A DNA stretch of 56,089 nucleotides, counting the filler, from Dugesia japonica (Eukaryota), in assembly GCA_001938525.1 (NCBI GenBank). It is 5 parts of 5 records of this genome, joined end to end, with 100 filler letters (N's around TTAATTAATTAA, not from the genome) between each part and the next. Parts side by side here need not be neighbours in the genome. Positions count along the whole stretch, not along the records: positions 23,141 to 37,042 come from MQRL01648069.1; 4 more parts are not named here. The stretch is one strand, 5' to 3'. The notes under the pieces are model-generated. The model was not told the origin of the DNA. It worked only from the letters and a program-made list of their open reading frames with translations, and did not search any database. Every line of letters begins with the position of its first letter. Positions within the stretch are counted from its first letter, which is position 1. The position numbers were made by a program, and so were the translations under genes. Below, in pieces: positions 9,193 through 34,100 of this stretch.

Positions 9193-9607
9193 TGTTATAA
9201 AACCTGGGCCTCAGGATAACACTAAGCCTACATGGTACTTAACTTTCACTCATGACTTTTAATTTTTAGTCACTTTAATCTCTCGATCACCTGCTCAAAA
9301 CCTTGCTCATCATAACGAGTATTGATATGGTCAAACATTGATTAAAGATAGATAACCAATACAAAGATCTGACCAATAGAGATTAAGTGGTTCTAAAGAT
9401 CAAGTGTGTATTATGAAATATGAACCCAAACCAAAGGAATGCAAGTCTGTACTCAGATTCCGAGTCAACGGTTTCATTCCGAAAATCTAGATTTTGGGAC
9501 ACTAGATCAAATTCTTTGAGGGGTTTTATTAAGCCAACTAGCTTAGACTTGTCTACTCACATAAATAAAACCCCAACAATAATTTCGGGGCTCAGTCGGG
9601 ATTTGAA
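9193..9607 (+). mobile_element. LTR (TGTTA...CCCCAACA, 9193-9578) followed by tRNA-Pro-like PBS
   Basis: TG...CA ends; TCGGGGCTCAGTCGGGATTTGAA at 9585-9607 vs canonical Pro PBS TGGGGGCTCGTCCGGGATTTGAA; 9410-9578 homologous to 12230-12410. The 5' boundary is uncertain. Confidence 0.6.
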
Positions 9608-19639: not shown

Positions 19640-20511
19640 CCACAAACAACAGAGAAACGGGTTGGAGAAATATTTGAACAAATGTTTAAAAAATGATTTC
19701 GTGACGAAAAATAAATTATATTAGACGAAATAAAGAAAAAAATTTGTAAAATACAACACTGGAAGCAAAAGAAAAGTATAGAAAACCGATATTGAAATAT
19801 TCTATAGTTGATGAAGAATTTTCAAAATGGATAGATTATATCTAATCGGTGGGTGGAATACAAAATGATAATTTGCTAATAAATAAAGCTTTTACAATTG
19901 CCAAGAATAATAATATTGAAAAACTTTAAGGTTCGGTTATATGTCTTTTAAAATTCAAAGCAAGACGACGTTTTTGAATTTTGAAGAATTTTTACACTCT
20001 TTAATTCAAAAAATCAATTTTTATGGAGCAGAAAATGTTTATAATGCGAATAAAACATGTATTTTTTTTATAAGTTTATTCCTTCTAAAAACCTATACAC
20101 AAACATTTGAAATGAGTACAAGATACTTAATGAAAGAGTTTCAGTATTACTTTGTTTAAATATGGTCGGGACAAAGAAACTTAAATCTTTGGTTATTGTA
20201 AAGTTCGTAAAACCAAGGTATTTTAATCAGTTCTCTCCGGAAACATGTTAAATATAGCAATTCATCAAGATCTAGAAGGACAGTCGAAATTTTTAATAAG
20301 TGGCTACCAGAATGGAATTTTAAGCTTTCTAAATTGAAAAACATAATTTTAATAGTTATCGACAATTTTCTTTAACATAGAATTTGTTGCATTAAAATCG
20401 ATAGAAATATTTTTCATGCCAGCAAGTCTAACATCAACACTTCAACCGTTAAACGAAGGAATAATTAAAGGGCTTAAATTATCTTTTAATAGCAAAAAAC
20501 TATCTGATATT
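19640..20511 (+). mobile_element. pogo/Tigger transposase pseudogene (CENP-B-like HTH + DDE_1)
   Basis: YGAENVYNA.KTCIFF, ERVSVLLCLNM.G.KKL..LVI, WLPEWN, IVIDNF, FMPASLTSTLQPLNEGII. Confidence 0.85.
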
Positions 20512-20523
20512 ATTATTTATTAA

Positions 20524-21214
20524 CACATTCGCTGCCAGTTTGAATATGGTTGATTGTACACAGAAACCAAATTTCAATTATGCAAAATTATGTATTAATA
20601 ATATACCTATGCAATAAAAATATATTCGCCTTGTGTGCGATACAAAAACTGAACAACAGAAAAACAATATACAATGACTATACCATGTGCTCCTACGGGG
20701 ACGGCAATATGAACCGAGCGAAATATCAATTTCAGATACTTAGTGAAATTCAAATANTTTTTCAATGATTTATCGAATATAAAAATAACTAATAAAATGT
20801 GGTTTAAATTTAAATTGAATTTATCGATATTATTTATTAATAGAGAAATTATATATAAACAATTTCATATTATAAAACACTAAATTCGCGATATACGTAA
20901 GATTCGCGTTACTGATGTGTAAATACGATCATTTCATTTTGCATGTTTAAAAGCAGTTGAATTCTATCAAATTTTCTTACAAAAATGAGCTTTGTTTTGA
21001 AAATTTGTTTAGATAGAATAATGAATCGACTTCTGAATGACAGATACGGCTCGACTGTTTAGCATATTACTTCTACGCTCATCTGAATTTTGAGAAATAT
21101 TCCTGATAAACTGGATTTTGTAATCAATTAACTTTTCACAATCGTTATTTTTCTAAATATTATTCAACAATTTTAAGTTAAGGTTAATTACGTTCTGTTT
21201 AGAAATAATTAACA
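20524..21214 (+). mobile_element. TTAA-flanked piggyBac-like non-autonomous element end, copy 1
   Basis: TTAA|CACATTCGCTGCCA start; near-identical to 22349-23040. Confidence 0.55.
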
Positions 21215-22250: not shown

Positions 22251-22348
22251 AAAAAATTTTAAAAAAAATAGTTTTTAGTAAAAAGGGAAATAATATTGAT
22301 AAAAAATTTTTAATACGAATTTGAAAGAAATTTTTAAATGTTTATTAA

Positions 22349-23040
22349 CACATTCGCTGCCAGTTTGAATATGGTTGATTGTACGCAGAAACCAAATTTC
22401 AATTATGCAAAATTATGTATTAATAATATACCTATGCAATAAAAATATATTCGGCTTGTGTGCGATACAAAAACTGAACAACAGAAAAACAATATACAAT
22501 GACTATGCCATGTGCTCCTATAGGAGACGGCCATATGAACCGAGCGAAATATCAATTTCAGATACCTAGTGAAATTCAAATAGTTTTTCAATGATTTATC
22601 GAATATAAAAATAACTAATAAAATGTGGTTTAAATTTAAATTGAATTTATCGATATTATTTATTAATAGAGAAATTATATATAAACAATTTCATATTATA
22701 AAACACTAAATTCGCGATATACGTAAGATTCGCGTTACTGATGTGTAAATACGATCATTTCATTTTGCATGTTTAAAAGCAGTTGAATTCTATCAAATTT
22801 TCTTACAAAAATGAGCTTTGTTTTGAAAATTTGTTTAGATAGAATAATGAATCGACTTCTGAATGACAGATACGGCTCGACTGTTTAGCATATTACTTCT
22901 ACGCTCATCTGAATTTTGAGAAATATTCCTGATAAACTGGATTTTGTAATCAATTAACTTTTCACAATCGTTATTTTTCTAAATATTATTCAACAATTTT
23001 AAGTTAAGGTTAATTACGTTCTGTTTAGAAATAATTAACA
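22349..23040 (+). mobile_element. TTAA-flanked piggyBac-like non-autonomous element end, copy 2
   Basis: Near-identical to 20524-21214; both run into gaps at the same base. Confidence 0.55.
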
Positions 23041-25803
23041 NNNNNNNNNNNNNNNNNNNNNNNNNNNNNNNNNNNNNNNNNNNNTTAATTAATTAANNNN
23101 NNNNNNNNNNNNNNNNNNNNNNNNNNNNNNNNNNNNNNNNCGCTAAAGAGATTGTAAACATTTTTCCATCCTATTTTTAAAAACTTGATTTTTTCAACTA
23201 GAGACAGCTTATGAGGTGTCTATATTCAATGGCTTAATTTTTAGTTTCTTTTTAGTTTACTTCCAGAATTCTAACTTTGATTTCCGGATTATTCATATTT
23301 TATTAAAACGGAAAATTTTTATACCATATTTTTTCTAAAAACGATTTATTTTTATACATTATCACAAATTTATATAATTAAAAGTAAGAATCTATTTAAG
23401 AAAAACACTTCGGATAAAATTAAATTAATTAATTTTTTTAATATTATTTACTTGTTTATACAATAAAAAAATTAACCTTTTATTATAGAAAGTATGTATA
23501 AACGATTTACCGATAAAATTGTAGATAGTACAGACGATATCAAGTAAGAAAATAATATGAAATCCACTAAAAAAATTAAAATTCTATTTCAAGAGAAATC
23601 TTTTTTTTTTTAATAAAATCTTACTTTTGTTTGTATTTATTTATAATAATTTTTAAAGTGGATTTTTAGATGAAATTTTTTTTACGGATATTTGATATTT
23701 TTATTTTATTATTAAATGTAAAAGTATGAGCCGGAAAAAAACTTAAATTTTCCTTAAATTTGTAATTAATATTTTAATTATCAAATTTTAATTTAATCTT
23801 ATATTTAAAAATAATTCAAAGATTTTTTATCAAAAATTTTTGATATTTTATTACTTTAGAAAAGCCTAAGTAAATTTTTCCCCTCAACCAAAAATTTTGT
23901 TTTTTTGCAATTCAAAGGGCGACCAAAAATACGAAATAAAGTCTTTTAGAAAAAGTTAGAAAAACATACGAAATGACAGAAAGCTTTAAAAATAAAATCT
24001 TATTATTCTTTATGTTTATTATGGGATTGGTGCTGTGAAAAGTTTTTTTATAATTTTTAAATTTTTTTCGCGACACACTATTTGCCCACCCCTGTATAAG
24101 ATTAATTAGTCAGATTTGCATAAATATTAGTAATTAAATATCTATGTTCTTTGTTATTTGTAATTAATTTTTTTAAATAAACATTAATATTAAAAAGAAA
24201 TGATTGATGAAATTACTTTAATAAACTTTTGATTAGAATTTCCCCCTTAAAATAACTGAGAAACCAAAATTTATAAAGACTATTTATTGACCATATTTAC
24301 GACGCAGCATTGATTACATTTTAGTTTTTTTAATTCTTTTCAATTTATAGAAGTTTTCTTTTAACAAATTATAATTAAAAATTATTAATTATAATGACTA
24401 AAAATCATATTTTATAAACTTTAAACTATTATATTTGTTGGGCTGAAACAGCTCAGTTGGAGAATAAATTTTAGTTAATTAAGAGAAGATGTGATAAAGA
24501 GCTCGGAGTACATGAGAAATGATTTTAATNNNNNNNNNNNNNNNNNNNNNNNNNNNNNNNNNNNNNNNNNNNNNNNNNNNNNNNNNNNNNNNNNNNNNNN
24601 NNNNNNNNNNNNNNNNNNNNNNNNNNNNNNNNNNNNNNNNNNNNNNNNGTCCGAATAAAACAAAGGATCAGAAAGAGAATGGAATTGTAATTAGAACAAA
24701 GGTACTCTAAGAAATAATTGTCCAAAACACATAAATAATTAAATAAAATGATTAAATAAAATGATTATATTAAATGAATAAATTAAAGAATAAATTAGAG
24801 GCGAACAATTTGGTAAATGAAAAATGATATTGGAAGAATGAATTAAATCGAAGAAGAATGAACTACCAAAATCAAAGTGTCGAAGAAAGGTGAATAAACA
24901 TTAATGCGGTGAATAAATAATAATGCTCAAAGAAAAATAGAAAAAAATTGAATTAAAGTTCAGAATTACTACGATAAAAGTCAGAAATAAAAAGGTTAGA
25001 ATTAAATAATGAGTGAGCAACGTAAAGATCGAAAGATATGCTGAACATATATTATTAATTATAATTTATATGATTGTTATATAAGTAGAATTATAAATNA
25101 ATANTTATTAGAATATAATAAAAAGATTATTGTAGGAAGTAGAATTAAAACAAAATAATTGTTGACTAAATTAGTATTATCATTATGTTATAAAATCAAT
25201 GGAAAAGATTTTATTATTAAAGTAAAGTATTAAATAATTAAAATATAAAAATATTATTATAGTATAATTATTGATTTTATTATTATTGGTGAAATATTAT
25301 TATTTGTAAAGAAAAAATCTGAATTTGGAAATGAAAGTTTTATATAGTGAAAAAGAATAAAAAGTAAATTAGTATTAAATATTTAAAGTAAATTATTTAT
25401 ATTTATTGATGGAAATATCAGTAATAAAATCTGTAAAATAGAATTTCCAAAATTATTATTTTAAACAATAAATATTATTAATTTTATTATGATCGGATAA
25501 ATATAATTAAATTTGATGAAAGAGACAGAATTTAATGATAAAAATTATATGAGAATAAAAAGGAGTTAATTTTATAAAAGATATAATTACTGATATTAAA
25601 TTATTTACATGTATTTATGTATTTATCCCTATTTACAAATCGTTAACAAGATTTTCAAATTATTATTTTTACATAAATATTATTATTTGAATTGGACATT
25701 TCTAAATGTCAAGCATTGATGTACGTGTTCCAACAAGTAGTATTGACACTATGAAATTCAGAATTTTGTTGATATTTGTTGAAATATGATAATGCCTGTG
25801 ACG

Positions 25804-26023
25804 GGTGAGCACCGCACTTTGTTGTAGACAATCAGAAATATATGTGTCTGGTGAGCACCGCACTATGTACAGAATATGACTTTGATGTAAATCTATGATG
25901 CCGAGTAAGCACCGGTATCCATATGCAGATAAGAAGATTGTATATCGAAGATGAACAGCAGATGTAAAAATAATCATGACTAAATTTAGATATTTGTGTA
26001 GAATCGGCGGGTGAGCACCGCAC
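25804..26023. repeat. Spaced repeats of GGTGAGCACCGCAC with non-identical spacers
   Basis: Exact copies at 25804, 25850 and 26010; variant AGTAAGCACCG at 25904; possible relic at ~25950. Confidence 0.9.
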
Positions 26024-26940
26024 GATTCGGCAAATATTTGAAGTAGATGCTTACGTGAAAATCAAATAATGATGATACAAAGATTACTATAAAAGAGATC
26101 TGAAATCTACAACTAAAACCAACCATTAAAATTAACTCAATTAAAATTGTTAGCGCTGTGAACACTGTTACATTGTTAATAATTTACTACAGATATATCA
26201 TTTTAAAGGCAAAGATGGAAAAGGAATTTTTGATTGTTTATTTTAATATTATCATCCATGATGTGAACGGAAGACTGATACGGTGATCGTCATTTTCTGG
26301 CAAAGCTAGCAATGATGATCATTGGAACTCAGAGATCCGAGGATACTAAATTATCTACTCTGGCAAAATCAAGTTTATGAGAGAACTTTTTTATGATTAT
26401 GAGAGAAATTCTTGATGAGAGAAAATGTTTGGGATTATGAGAGGAATTATGTTATTGGAATGTCGATGATCATGAAAGATGAATAGTAATGGTTGATAAT
26501 AAATGGCTAAGGTTAGAAGAGATGAGTTGTAAAGGACAATGATAAATATGAGACGACTATTAAAGTGAATGATGGTTAGATGAGATGGAAGTGGAGTGTG
26601 AAAGTGATGATAATAAAAGTGGATAATGAGAGATGAGGTTTAAAGTTGAGATGAGATAGATACGAATTGCGTTGTTGAGTTATAGAAATAAATATGTCTC
26701 TATATACCGATAGGCGGTGGTTGAATTATTCTATTACTGTTTAATAAATTACTTACTGTATTGCAGAATTGTAGTTGTAATTGTAGTGAAAATATTTCAT
26801 TGATGTCTGATATATTTGAGTCATTTTATTCATGGTTTTATTTTAGATTATTATTATTATTATTATTAATATCATAAATGAATTTTAGTTTATTACTTTA
26901 TATAATAAAATTGATATTACTTTAATTAGAAATTTATCAG

Positions 26941-27714
26941 GATAGTGCAGGAGGACCATTCTTTATGAGGAAGGAGGTAGATGTTCCAGAATTGGTCTTT
27001 AATGACCCCGATTATTATCGATTAAATGAAAATAAGTATCAAATTATGAATGTATCTATTGATACCCAATTATGAAGCACTTAAAATATATGAAGAAGTT
27101 CTAACTCCTTCTGCCCATGACGAATGATCGTTGGTCTCCCGGAATTTAGTAATTTAGATAATTTAATTTAAAAACTCGATGATCTGTTTTGACATTATCT
27201 GATTATTATTTTGGTTAAATATATGTATTGAATTTAATGTATCTTAAAACAAGAAATACGATTTTGTCTAGATGGCACAGAATATCGCATTAGAAGGGGC
27301 CAAGCAATCGATTACAGTGGATGGATGGAGTTTCAGCACGCCTAAGTCTAATAACATGCCTGTATTATGGGACTCACTGGGAGTCACAGGCACTGACATG
27401 GGTCCCTGGTGGATTATTCAGGATTGATTGAGAGAAAAGCAAAGTGAGATTTAACAATTACGAGCAGAGGCCAAACAACAAATTCATCAGCATATGGAAC
27501 ATCTCCAACAAATAGAGGCTCTGCAGGTTTGTGTGGATAATCAGGAGCAGGTTTATCAGCAAAGATTGGACGAGATAAACCGATGGCAGCGGCCGGCATC
27601 ATCAAGGCATATGCCGACAGAGAGGGAGTGTTGATTTCTACTGTAATGACGCTAGTGCAAGTTTCCAAACCGGAGAAAGAGATCTCAAAAAGGATCAGTC
27701 AAAGAAGTCATTGA
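26941..27714 (+). pseudogene. Decayed, possibly spliced ORF with coiled-coil segment inside the TG...CA element
   Basis: After ttatcAG: DSAGGPFFMRKEVDVPELVFNDPDYYRL...; after ttgtctAG: MAQNIALEG...PWWIIQD*LREKQSEI*QLRAEAKQQIHQHMEHLQQIEALQVCVDNQEQVYQQRLDEI; locally GC-rich; stops at 27425 and 27452. Confidence 0.5.
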
Positions 27715-28077
27715 TTTAGATGGATGATAAACATTGGACAAGTAATATTGCTTGATATGAAAAAAATGTTGTACAAATGTATTTGTGGAATCTCCGATTA
27801 TCATTTAAACTAATGATGAATAATATTGTTTAATTTCTAAATTAGAGCCGGATAGAAATTGAAACCTAAGTCGGAATACAGCATAGTCCCGCTGAATCAT
27901 GTAAAATAGGGATTGTGTTACTAGAGAGAGTAACTCAAATTTCTGTGGTTGCTAAGTATCATCCCCCAGACGTAAATGATATCTATGAGAAAGAAAATTG
28001 GTGATCGAGAGAATGGTAATAAAACTCAAAAGATCGAGTATAAATCAACATAATAAGGCCTAGCAACCCAACATATT

Positions 28078-29010
28078 GGTAAGAAAATAATGCCATTTCT
28101 TTAATCTTTCACTTTAAACTCAATTCCAAATAATATTTATTTATTAAAATAAATAATAATATTTTAAAACTTTTTTTAAAATTTATTTAAATATTAATTG
28201 ATAAGCCTCTTTTTGCGTTCATCTTCTTTTGACGAATTAAAAAACAGAAACATTTAAATGTCATGCCATTTATTTGTACGAGTTGAAACTGGGCCATGGA
28301 GCTATAACACTTTTCGTAAAGCCAACGGCATATTTTTTCAGAGTTCCGAAAATAAGCTTGTTATACAAAGATGTTTTAAAACAAACACCTACGAAGATGA
28401 AAGCCTAACAACTAAAGAAGGTCATGAACAATTATAAATTGAGTCATATGATTAAGGCAGATACAAGCACAACAATTTGAGAACTTGTTACAACTTAAAC
28501 GTAAGTCATCCAACAGTTCTGGACCATCTAAAACTACTGAGCAATGAAAAAAACCTGAAAAATGTGTACCACATGATTAAAATGAGAAACAAAAAAATCG
28601 ACGTTTCAAAGAGTGATTTATTTATTTCAAAACGTACAATCGTTCAGCACAATTTTTGGAACGTGACCAAGATCCAAAACCATAATTTCACCAAAAAAGA
28701 TTATGCTCACCGTTTAGTGCTTTGTTAGAGACATTATTTATTATGAATTACTGACTCCTGGAGAGATAATTACAAAATATAAGTACTGATAAATCAATAA
28801 GATGCACCAAAAATACAAAAGTTTAGTCCTGCATTGATCAATAGAGTAGACCTTATTATTCTCCCTTTTACACGGTACACAAATAACGAAAAGATAGTTG
28901 CATGTGTTATCGTATGCAAATTTCCAGCGTTCAGTATACTCACTGGTTCTATCTTTTATCTATAACATAAAAATTATTAAAAACGAAATAATTTTCTTAT
29001 CAACNTAATA
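28078..29010 (+). mobile_element. mariner element, decayed; left TIR split by the 24436-28073 insertion
   Basis: YELKLGH, PKKIMLTV, DIIYYELLTPGE motifs; right TIR ...TTTTCTTATCAACNTAATA matches reconstructed left TATTATATTGGTAAGAAAA. Confidence 0.85.
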
Positions 29011-29527
29011 CAAGTGATTCATTTAGTAAATAAAAATGAAAATAATAATTTGAAAATATAATTTATATATTTTATTGTATCCAAAGAATACGGAAATTTC
29101 AAAATTTCGAGCAACGTGTGGTGTTGCATTTCCTTGTTGCAGACGAACTTGTCCACGGTTGAGTAAAGAAGGGTAGCGTTGGGACACAATTTCATATATT
29201 CTTTATAGTCGTTCAATAACGGTGACACAAGCCTTGAACTCGAATAAGGATCTCTTAAACCATCTCTACTAGAAGAAAACTTACTGTGGAAGTATGTAAA
29301 ATTCAATCTTTCTCTCTCTACAGGCCAATTGTCATGTTGATATGACACTTCAAAATAAGACTTTCATAGCGATCTTTGCGCAATGAGTAATGTATATTCT
29401 ACAATGAATCTTTACGAGTTGTTGTAAATTCAAGCAATCAAAGGCTTCAAATTTGTCAAATGCTATTGAATAATTCACTGGATGTACTGAATTTTGAAAG
29501 AATTGCTACAATGGACAAAAAGTGGGT

Positions 29528-30520
29528 AGTATTAAAAGTAGAGGGAAAGTAGCTTTCAATCGCCCCACAGAATCAGTGATGTAATGAAACTTAATCCTAA
29601 AGTTTGGAAATTAAAAATTCTGTCAGAGAAGTTGTTTTTCCATGTGTATTTAGTTGGGGAAATTATTTGCACACAAATGATGTCATGAGATTTTTTTAAT
29701 CAGTGAAATTGGATTNCTTAAGTATTAAGAGAGACTATTTTTTCTTATGTTTTTAGTTGGCAAAAGATTTTTAAATTACATAACTCTTAGTCGCTTTTTT
29801 AAAGGTTTGGCGAATCATTTTCAAATTTTAGGCTTTTTAGTTGGGAAAATCTTTGAGACTTTTTAGGTGGCAAAAATTTTTTCAAGCATTTGGGTTAGAA
29901 TTCCCTGTGTGAAGTCGAATGAGGTTGATTTTTAATTGGTACAGATGAATTTGGTAAATAATTTTCTTGGTGAGGTCGAATATGGTCAAATTTTGTCTAG
30001 TTTAGAATAATTTTTGGGTGATTCGGTCAAATACTACCTCGGGAATAAAAGAATTGAGTAATTTTGGTCGAATTTTGATTCGATGAGGTCAAATCAAGTC
30101 AAATATGGTCAGTTTGGGTAATTTTGGTCAATTATTTACTCGGCATTGGTAAACTTGGTTAATTATTTGCTTAGAAGGATAATTTTTAGGTGAAATTGGT
30201 CAATTATTTCTTCACAATGGTCAGTTCAAGATTAATTTGAGTGATAATTTCCTCGAGCTAGTCAGTTTAGGTTGAATTTTAGGGAAATTCATAGTAAAAG
30301 TCGAATTTGTTTAAATCTTCTAATGGGATCTGGAATATCCAAAAATTCGATAAGTTTTTTGAAAAAACATTTTAATTTTTTTGAATTCTAGATCACATAA
30401 TTTACGGAAATCAACGGAAACTATCAACAGTCTTGATGGAATTGAGCTACTACCACATCGATTCTGGGGCAAATGGTATGAGTTCAAAATGATATATAAA
30501 AAGTGGTATTGACGAAATAT
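29528..30520 (-). repeat. Dispersed repeat, inverted relative of 38700-40176 (terminus plus degenerate TTGGTCAA array)
   Basis: AGTATTAAAAGTAGAGGGA start vs reverse complement of 40160-40176; catgtgtatttagttggg.aaatt.tttgcacacaaat matches revcomp of 39976-40014. Confidence 0.85.
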
Positions 30521-33458: not shown

Positions 33459-33829
33459 TTATTTTTTCATTTGATTTTTTGTGGTGTCAATTTGAGAATC
33501 GTCACGTTTTTTATTTCTAAAAAATCCGAATAATGAACGTTCAGATTTTTGAGAAGATTTTTCTTTTTCTATTTTATTTGACTCTTTAATATCGTTTTTA
33601 ATCGGTTGAGATTTTTTCAATTCAATTTTATTTTCTGATTTTTCTTTCAATATTTTTAATTCATTTTCTATTTCTTCTCTTTTTGATCTCTGAATAGTTT
33701 GAATATCTCTTCCACACAAATTTGACGAATTGCCTTCCATTAAAATCCATTGATGTGAAAGTATATCGATTACCGTTAATCTTTTCAAAGGTTTTGGATT
33801 TAATAAACCATCAATAAGTTCTTTGGCTT
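33459..33829 (-). CDS. CAMK-group Ser/Thr kinase, last exon (subdomain XI + charged tail)
   Basis: EAKELIDGLLNPKPLKRLTVIDILSHQWI...stop; 47-nt GT..AG intron 33830-33876. Confidence 0.88.
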
Positions 33830-33876
33830 CTTAAAATATAGTTGATGCATTTATGAAAACGTCAAATATTTTTTAC

Positions 33877-34044
33877 CTCGCATTATTCCATTCCATTGGT
33901 AGCCACAATAATCATATGTATTATTGACTATGTTGTGAAACAGTTGAGAACGATCACTGTTTCCTGTCATGAAAGGATGGTTAGTTGATAAAAGCATGTA
34001 TGTCAAAATTCCCAAGGACCACGTATCCACCTCGTGCTTATAAG
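33877..34044 (-). CDS. CAMK-group Ser/Thr kinase, penultimate exon (subdomains IX-X)
   Basis: YKHEVDTWSLGILTYMLLSTNHPFMTGNSDRSQLFHNIVNNTYDYCGYQWNGIMR, open frame, tgcAG acceptor and GT donor. Confidence 0.9.
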
Positions 34045-34100
34045 CTGCATGTAAAAGAAAATTAAATTTTTTTTATAATATTCAAATTAAAGGTTTTTAC

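What the first reader, a model, noticed from the sequence alone, without database searches (positions are those of the whole stretch)
24436..28073. 3.6-kb TG...CA element with clean TSD, no gag/pol, carrying cargo: candidate giant gene-bearing solo LTR
Seen: ends TGTTGGG/CCCAACA and TATT duplicated on both sides. Removing the element rebuilds TATTATATTGGTAAGAAAATAAT, which matches the right TIR of the adjacent mariner and independently supports both boundaries. No RT, integrase or transposase motif is visible inside. Both ends weakly match the reverse complement of the LTR at 9193-9578 (agct.agttgg...aataaa; tctctcgatcacc), which is followed by a tRNA-Pro-like PBS. Known: TG..CA ends with a 4-bp TSD are typical of Gypsy integration, and multi-kb LTRs occur in giant Ogre and planarian Burro elements. 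Inference: a solo LTR of an undescribed giant retroelement whose LTR carries an antisense gene and a repeat array.
Basis: partly seen in the sequence, partly recalled or inferred. Interest (0 to 1): 0.72.

Follow-up and report, generated by a model that had tools for sequence, protein, structure and literature searches.

The report
Solo LTR of PPT-less giant retrotransposon
This 3.6-kb piece is the lone leftover end-repeat of a large, virus-like jumping gene of a likely flatworm: it carries two broken small genes, and its relatives lack the purine-rich stretch that such elements normally use to start their second DNA strand, having instead a C-rich stretch that reads like the end of a tRNA and likely does that job.

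Summary
Confirmed: 24436-28073 is a solo LTR with a TATT duplication, inserted in a mariner's terminal repeat. Both ends are sharp in many copies, other copies span the N gap, and the right end is followed elsewhere by a 7-nt spacer and an 18-nt tRNA-Pro primer site (52 places, control 0). That fixes the LTR on the + strand. The cargo is sense, not antisense: two helical coding blocks under purifying selection between subfamilies, broken in this copy. Relatives show gag-env-pol order, a Burro-like Gypsy type known from planarians. The unexpected part lies at the relatives' 3' junction: none of 91 listed junctions has a polypurine tract. They have a hairpin, a T run and an ~11-nt stretch that ends in CCA in 70 of 91, 6 nt before the LTR, mirroring the primer site. 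It likely serves as a non-purine plus-strand primer; priming by a second tRNA is possible but weakened by a four-copy lineage ending in AGA. The junction was not seen for the window's exact subfamily (0 of 53). This scan noted LTR-borne small genes in this genome and a similar PPT replacement in single fungal copies before.

The parts
24436..28073 (+). Solo LTR (TGTTGGG...CCCAACA), 3638 bp with a 119-N scaffold gap; whole relatives measure 2.7-4.2 kb
24432..24435 (+). Left copy of the 4-bp target-site duplication TATT
28074..28077 (+). Right copy of the 4-bp target-site duplication TATT
24530..24648 (.). Scaffold gap inside the LTR; spanned without N in 13 other contigs
25267..25688 (+). Old internal duplication of about 210 bp (about 70% alike), seen as cross-matches to other copies
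   Evidence: query 832-1048 against 1039-1253
25804..26019 (+). Three exact and one degenerate copy of the near-palindrome GGTGAGCACC; possible enhancer sites (inferred); present in L080 and L090, absent from 5 of 9 LTRs scanned
27272..27589 (+). Coding block A, predicted coiled coil; two in-frame stops here and cut short by the deletion
27589..27590 (+). Junction of a deletion of about 600 bp (580-644 bp present in five other contigs) that removed the end of block A, the spacer and the first half of block B
27595..27727 (+). Remnant of coding block B (KAYADRE motif), with a frameshift near its end; the block is one long predicted helix in less damaged copies
27754..27768 (+). Place of the polyadenylation-signal-like hexamer found at a fixed offset in 20 of 27 contigs; lost in this copy
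24427..29010 (+). Decayed mariner transposon that received the insertion inside its left terminal repeat (24427-24435 and 28078-29010)
9572..9602 (+). 3' end of a sister-family LTR, 7-nt spacer and decayed tRNA-Pro primer site (another stretch of the pack; same orientation as the solo LTR)

Best explanation
This is a solo LTR, likely left by LTR-LTR recombination of a large env-bearing Gypsy retrotransposon (Burro-like gag-env-pol layout in relatives) that had integrated into a mariner's terminal repeat; it carries two broken sense-strand coding blocks, and its relatives have no polypurine tract but a C-rich, tRNA-end-like stretch that likely primes the plus strand. Steps. (a) Shown: LTR identity, orientation, 4-bp duplication, tRNA-Pro primer site 7 nt off the LTR. 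(b) Shown: relatives with the same LTR ends have gag, env, protease, RT, RNase H and integrase in that order. (c) Shown: the 3' junction of relatives reads hairpin, T run, about 11 nt ending mostly in CCCCA, 6-nt spacer, TG. (d) Inferred: RNase H cuts the genomic RNA after CCA, on a hybrid much like the tRNA/PBS hybrid that it must cut anyway, and this fragment primes the plus strand; integrase would then trim 6 and 7 nt from the two ends instead of the usual few. (e) Inferred: the LTR blocks are accessory proteins of the element, made from spliced or LTR-started RNAs that end at the LTR's polyadenylation signal; this copy cannot make them.
For: LTR: 52 places join the right end to GGAATTT plus the primer site, control 0; 2 of 26 nearest right ends do so, found without asking for it. 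The site is the exact complement of the host tRNA-Pro 3' 15 nt plus CCA. Exact 4-bp duplications in 3 of 6 whole large LTRs (window included), one mismatch in 2, none in 1; exact in 6 of 7 sister LTRs; no exact 5-bp duplication. Solo excess: 5 of the first 100 of 1275 left ends abut internal sequence. Body: Retrotrans_gag, zf-CCHC, PF24664 fusion protein (E 5.5e-48), RVP, RVT_1, RT_RNaseH, rve, in order on L340 and L346; RT-RH-IN point towards the C-rich junction on L205, L303, L351. Link to this LTR: L123 (nearest LTR start) has the primer site and a pre-env accessory homologue (E 1.6e-11); L138 has the same right end and primer site and a gag 55% identical to that of L340; L223 is 70-75% like this LTR in four stretches and follows the C-rich junction. 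Junction: a search that left the site free gave 131 hits, 100 listed, 91 true junctions by eye, 70 ending CCA, none with a purine tract; in 59 fetched junctions the longest purine run in the last 20 nt is at most 5, purine share falls from about 0.7 to 0.4, and T run to spacer is 11 nt in 32 of 47 measured. A T-rich box before the plus-strand primer is a known element (10.1101/2022.12.06.519325, passage); Ty3's primer is 12 nt (PMC5371799, passages). Cargo: between subfamilies third positions differ most (block B 0.31/0.20/0.55) and sense syn:non is 498:196 against 164:530 antisense; five distant homologues of block B, E 5e-12 to 1e-4.
Against: The C-rich junction was not found for the window's exact subfamily: 0 of 53 left ends and 0 hits; about 5% would be expected, so zero has a chance near 7%. 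The link of this LTR to env and pol is through relatives; no contig holds a whole element. The 59 junctions and the 46 primer-site junctions counted there came largely from patterns that asked for CCCA or GGAATTT, so only searches are unbiased. The region 40-100 nt upstream is purine-rich (runs of 8 or more in 41 of 59), so a more distant primer is not excluded. No cDNA ends, no RNA data and no biochemistry. One whole LTR (L088) has no duplication. MATH, BIR, ankyrin and BCL2 domains of Burro were not found in the frames scanned.
Confidence: 0.75

Rival explanations
1. Same solo LTR, but the plus strand is primed in trans by a second host tRNA-Pro that anneals to the TGGGGGC site on minus-strand DNA, so both strands start from tRNA.
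For: The two inner junctions mirror each other: CCCAACA, 7 or 6 nt, TGGGGGC. The minus strand matches the primer site for 5 or more contiguous bases in 50 of 59 junctions, 7 in 32 (partly selected set). One copy has the 3' internal region joined to the U5 end with the U5 spacer, i.e. flipped at that shared motif (L119).
Against: Only 5-7 bp of pairing. Four copies, about 91-98% alike, share an end in AGA instead of CCA, which no tRNA has. No left end carries a tRNA copy: the 5 hits are ordinary U5 junctions of other families. The flipped junction is a single place in the genome and the control pattern also had one hit.
Confidence: 0.15
2. The C-rich site is not a primer. It pairs with the primer site or with itself (GGGCCC palindrome) to circularise or dimerise the RNA, or forms a hairpin with the LTR start, and the plus strand starts at a purine run further upstream.
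For: The common form can pair 9 nt with the primer site with one G-U pair (read). Predicted folds pair the C run with the LTR's first GGG or with the upstream G run (10 natural copies). Purine runs of 8 or more lie 40-100 nt upstream in 41 of 59.
Against: The upstream sequence differs between subfamilies while hairpin, T run, length and spacer are kept. A primer 40-100 nt away would leave a very long U3 extension for integrase to remove. The GGGCCC palindrome is missing in the CGAGG and CTGAAG forms.
Confidence: 0.15
3. Not an LTR but a non-autonomous DNA transposon with 7-bp terminal inverted repeats, or a scaffolding join of two unrelated pieces.
For: Ends are inverted repeats and no coding region for mobility lies inside; an N gap lies near the left end.
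Against: The right end is followed by a tRNA primer site in 52 places, left ends of relatives follow integrase-bearing internal sequence, and 13 contigs span the gap.
Confidence: 0.02

Closest known systems
Burro / GYPSM1 giant Gypsy elements of planarians (PMC6431247, section 7 read whole)
   Same: Gag with retrotrans_gag and CCHC knuckles, fusion-protein env between gag and protease, an extra domain between protease and RT, multi-kb LTRs, decayed copies; fragments add up to roughly 25-30 kb (inference).
   Different: No MATH, BIR, ankyrin or BCL2 hit in the frames scanned; two protease-like domains; several kb of extra frames after integrase. The section read says nothing on LTR genes, primer site or plus-strand primer. 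No sequence comparison with Burro1-4 was possible.
GAG-ENV-POL, HSV/gB-type errantiviruses of Platyhelminthes (PMC13524379; passages and 9 rows of supplementary file 1 seen)
   Same: Same gene order; env hits PF24664 and looks by eye like the one Schmidtea env row shown.
   Different: The table gives no LTR or primer site for any of the six Schmidtea elements ('none'); 'polypurine' occurs 0 times in the main text.
Ogre elements of plants (as summarised in PMC6431247)
   Same: LTRs of 1.9-6.5 kb.
   Different: Other host kingdom; extra ORFs lie in the internal region; no env of this type.
MMTV sag, HIV nef, foamy-virus bel2 (recalled, no call)
   Same: Accessory gene in or reaching into the LTR, on the sense strand, upstream of the polyadenylation site.
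   Different: True retroviruses with a polypurine tract; unrelated proteins; LTRs under 2 kb.
Polypurine-tract priming of Ty3, Ty1 and HIV (PMC5371799 and PMC3185511, passages)
   Same: Position next to U3, upstream T-rich box, length of 11-12 nt.
   Different: Known primers are purines with at most a single pyrimidine; here the 3' half is a run of C, and the offsets are 6 and 7 nt (primer-site offsets of 0-5 nt in PMC2790888, passages, where the program's own limit may set the range).

Membership tests
Solo LTR | TG...CA ends with a short target-site duplication and no internal region | tested here: met
Solo LTR | The same unit occurs elsewhere next to a primer binding site | tested here: met
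   L123 holds both ends and the primer site
Solo LTR | The same unit occurs elsewhere as a 3' LTR after internal sequence | tested here: inconclusive
   Met for a 70-75% relative (L223) and other subfamilies; 0 of 53 for the exact subfamily
Ty3/Gypsy | Pol order PR-RT-RNase H-IN | tested here: met
   In relatives: L205, L340, L346, L350, L357
Ty3/Gypsy | tRNA primer binding site after the 5' LTR | tested here: met
   18 nt, tRNA-Pro, 7 nt off the LTR
Ty3/Gypsy | Polypurine tract before the 3' LTR | tested here: not met
   0 of 91 listed junctions; longest purine run at most 5 in 59 of 59. Class rests on pol, so this marks a variant, not exclusion
Ty3/Gypsy | Place in an RT tree among named clades | not tested
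   Best database hits 36-50% identical and mostly unnamed; no tree built
Flatworm GAG-ENV-POL errantiviruses | gB-type env between gag and pol | tested here: met
   PF24664 on L346 (E 5.5e-48), L352, L355, weakly L340; upstream of PR and RT
Burro / GYPSM1 | retrotrans_gag followed by two or three CCHC knuckles | tested here: met
   PF03732 weak (E 8e-4, under cut-off) and two zf-CCHC
Burro / GYPSM1 | dUTPase-like domain between PR and RT | tested here: inconclusive
   A conserved extra frame sits there, but Pfam gave no dUTPase hit
Burro / GYPSM1 | MATH, BIR, ankyrin, BCL2-like domains | tested here: not met
   No such hit in the open frames scanned between gag and env or after IN; frames are fragments of decayed copies. 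Not filed as Burro proper
Burro / GYPSM1 | One in-frame polyprotein of about 5000 aa; total length over 30 kb | not testable with these tools
   Assembly in 648,594 contigs; no whole copy found
Burro / GYPSM1 | Sequence identity with Burro1-4 | not testable with these tools
   No reference sequence held; the describing paper was not held

The most novel reading that the evidence does not exclude
A whole, once very active group of env-bearing animal retrotransposons has given up the polypurine tract: it starts the plus strand from a site that copies the 3' end of its own tRNA-Pro primer (as a genomic RNA fragment or as a second tRNA), giving mirror-image ends with 6- and 7-nt extensions, while its multi-kb LTRs carry their own selected genes and spread them as over a thousand solo cassettes.
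Probability: 0.55. Interest if true: 0.78.

Novelty: new variant of a known kind. Interest (0 to 1): 0.58.

Why it matters
The solo LTR itself is ordinary and dead. The family matters for two reasons. First, a purine-rich plus-strand primer is treated as universal for retroviruses and LTR retrotransposons; here about 90 junctions from several subfamilies lack it and keep another, sharply placed signal, which gives a natural test of what RNase H really recognises. Annotation programs that look for a polypurine tract and a primer site within 5 nt would miss these elements' ends, which may be why published tables give none for Schmidtea relatives. Second, LTRs that carry selected genes and a polyadenylation signal turn each solo LTR into a possible expression cassette, in a genome with more than a thousand such left ends.

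Tried and rejected
A guessed purine tract 6 nt before the LTR: 3 hits with unrelated spacers, rejected. Inverted homology to the 9193-9578 piece: rejected. Antisense gene: long antisense frames exist in many copies but the codon pattern rejects them. Introns in the cargo: AG sits before both blocks in most aligned copies, but no copy lacks the spacer (11 contigs measured) and five homologues of block B begin with their own Met; two small ORFs or exons remains open. tRNA left on a U3 end: none. Split tRNA-Pro genes: L241 and L242 lack the 5' part, but whole 5' halves exist, so rejected. Block A: no homologue at E 0.01 among proteins of similar length, no informative Atlas hit, only weak coiled-coil Pfam hits. 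Rfam: nothing in 23141-30000. Metagenome scan for the primer-site junction: 0. Sequencing runs: no RNA holder listed. Literature: searches found no paper, by listing and abstracts, on an LTR element without a polypurine tract or with a tRNA-primed plus strand; searches found no description of Burro ends or LTR genes. The original Burro paper and Repbase entries could not be read and may hold such details.
Full report
Observation. The window is a pack of five stretches; the finding lies in the third, G000:C648069:1296-4933. The element starts TGTTGGG at 24436, ends CCCAACA at 28073 and has TATT on both sides. Read without the element, the site matches the far terminal repeat of a decayed mariner at 19 of 23 positions (by eye); the mariner gives PF01359 at E 1.1e-7. 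It is a repeat: 69 matches among 40 scored of 3028 candidates. All 30 left-end loci begin at the same base and 26 of 30 right-end loci end at the same base with flank. Thirteen other contigs join the left end to the interior without N, so the gap does not join unrelated loci.

It is an LTR, on the + strand. Two of the 26 right ends continue into GGAATTT and TGGGGGCTCAGCCGGGAT or a decayed form; a pattern for this junction finds 52 places, control 0. The 18-mer is the complement of the host tRNA-Pro 3' end: ARAGORN calls tRNA-Pro(AGG) in L360, and the 3' part in L242 plus CCA pairs with all 18 bases. L123 holds a whole 3226-bp LTR with nearly the same start, followed by that site. Whole solo copies measure 2.7-4.2 kb; the 4-bp duplication is exact in 3 of 6 (window included), off by one base in 2, absent in 1. 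The first 15 bases occur 1275 times (control 3); 5 of the 100 listed abut internal sequence, so solos likely outnumber full elements by well over ten to one, a rough figure in a draft assembly. That 15-mer is shared by many subfamilies; 53 places carry this subfamily's 20-mer.

The piece at 9193-9578 is only the 3' part of a sister LTR: its copies share the upstream sequence, and whole ones are 1.3-2.05 kb, start TGTTGGGGTGAAACA and have exact 4-bp duplications in 6 of 7. It therefore runs in the same direction as the solo LTR, and the reverse-complement matches are chance-level over the whole lengths.

Cargo. Less damaged copies hold about 600 bp more at 27590 and show two coding blocks in the last 1.4 kb. 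Between subfamilies, mismatches by codon position are 0.42/0.31/0.61 and 0.40/0.18/0.52 for the two parts of block A and 0.31/0.20/0.55 for block B; single-change codons in B are 498 synonymous to 196 non-synonymous on the sense strand and 164 to 530 on the antisense strand. Among near copies the pattern is flat, as expected for decay after insertion. Block B folds as one long helix (mean pLDDT 80.6, pTM 0.42) and has five small unnamed homologues sharing the K-x-YADRE motif; a sixth hit is a repetitive protein and was set aside. Block A has no homologue found. A polyadenylation-like hexamer lies 119-138 nt after the core of B in 20 of 27 contigs. In the window copy block A has two stops, the deletion removes the end of A and half of B, B has a frameshift, and the hexamer is lost. 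Whether the blocks are exons or two small ORFs is open. Their role as accessory regulators is inference from the place in the LTR, by analogy with retroviral LTR genes (recalled).

The body. Contigs that share an RT with a 3'-junction copy show gag, several unknown frames, a fusion-protein env (PF24664), two protease-like domains with zinc knuckles between them, an unassigned frame, RT, RNase H, integrase, then further frames with hydrophobic stretches. This is the gag-env-pol order described for Burro (PMC6431247, section 7 read) and for flatworm errantiviruses (PMC13524379, passages). Burro's MATH, BIR, ankyrin and BCL2 domains were not found, so I call it Burro-like, not Burro. The host is likely a planarian; this rests on that layout and on notes of this scan, not on a test. 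The tie between the window's LTR and this body is indirect: L138, L123 and L223. Many copies are internal-deletion derivatives (L203, L204, L123).

The 3' junction. Left ends that abut internal sequence show no purine tract. A typical natural copy (L181) reads AATTCCGGGGCGGAATT, TTTT, GTGGGCCCCCA, GTAATT, then the LTR. RT, RNase H and integrase point towards this junction on L205, L303 and L351, so it is the 3' side. A search anchored only on the hairpin arm and the LTR start gave 131 hits, control 0; of the 100 listed I dropped 9 as chance; of 91, 70 end in CCA six bases before the LTR, 15 differ by one or two changes, 4 end in AGA and 2 in TTG; none has a purine tract (counted by eye). In 59 fetched junctions, a set partly chosen for CCCA, purine share falls from about 0.7 upstream to 0.4 in the last 20 nt and the stretch between T run and spacer is 11 nt in 32 of 47 measured. 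On the minus strand the site reads CCCAACA, 6 nt, TGGGGGC, a mirror of the primer-site junction.

Mechanism. Plus-strand synthesis normally starts from a purine-rich RNA next to U3 (PMC3185511, PMC5371799; passages), often behind a T-rich box (10.1101/2022.12.06.519325, passage). Here the T run, the length and the position fit such a primer, but the sequence copies the tRNA 3' end. [quoted passage not shown] Against a second tRNA in trans: 5-7 bp of pairing, a four-copy AGA lineage and no tRNA left on any U3 end. For it: the mirror symmetry and one flipped copy (L119). A primer further upstream with a structural role for the C run is not excluded. The junction was not seen for the exact subfamily (0 of 53; 0).

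Known or new. Solo LTRs, multi-kb LTRs and gag-env-pol planarian elements are known. I found no paper on an LTR element without a polypurine tract nor on Burro's ends or LTR genes; the original Burro paper and Repbase were out of reach, and the eLife table lists no LTR or primer site for six Schmidtea elements. Notes of this scan report LTR-borne small genes and a zipper gene in this genome and single fungal copies with a tRNA-like site in place of the tract; I had written my reading of the junction before seeing them and did not check the fungal cases. Verdict: new variant of a known kind; interest 0.58, carried by the family's ends, not by this dead copy.

Noticed in passing
L119 (G000:C180327:70-757): An LTR's U5 end and its 7-nt spacer are joined to the 3' internal region in reverse, exchanged at the shared TGGGGGC; the only such place found.
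   Followed up: partly
L243:161-218 (G000:C378538): A tRNA-like stretch (RF00005, model 8-63, E 9e-8) runs on through the primer-site complement into an LTR U5 end; its 5' part looks unlike the tRNA-Pro genes. Possibly a reverse-transcribed primer.
   Followed up: partly
L241 and L242: Two 3' parts of tRNA-Pro with different anticodons lack the 5' 13 nt and share about 330 nt of upstream sequence; whole 5' halves exist elsewhere, so likely an insertion or assembly effect.
   Followed up: partly
L350:78-1154, L348, L351, L346: Pol region holds two aspartic-protease-like domains separated by zinc knuckles.
   Followed up: no
L205, L209, L218, L350 (after integrase): Several kb of extra frames with signal-peptide-like and membrane-like stretches and no Pfam match.
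   Followed up: no
L295-L298: Four-copy lineage whose 3' site ends in AGA instead of CCA.
   Followed up: partly
L254, L255, L284, L294 and several left ends: Many insertions sit in or next to (AAT)n/(TTA)n microsatellites; possible target preference, not tested.
   Followed up: no
window 33462-34072 (- strand): Exon-like pieces of a protein kinase gene (PF00069, E 6e-6 and 0.015).
   Followed up: no
window 29640-30320 and 38770-40020: Copies of one repeat with about 51-bp degenerate units, in opposite orientations on two stretches.
   Followed up: no
window 20398-20996 and 22341-22822: Near-identical (98-99%) duplication 1825 bp apart, beside N gaps; may be an assembly effect.
   Followed up: no
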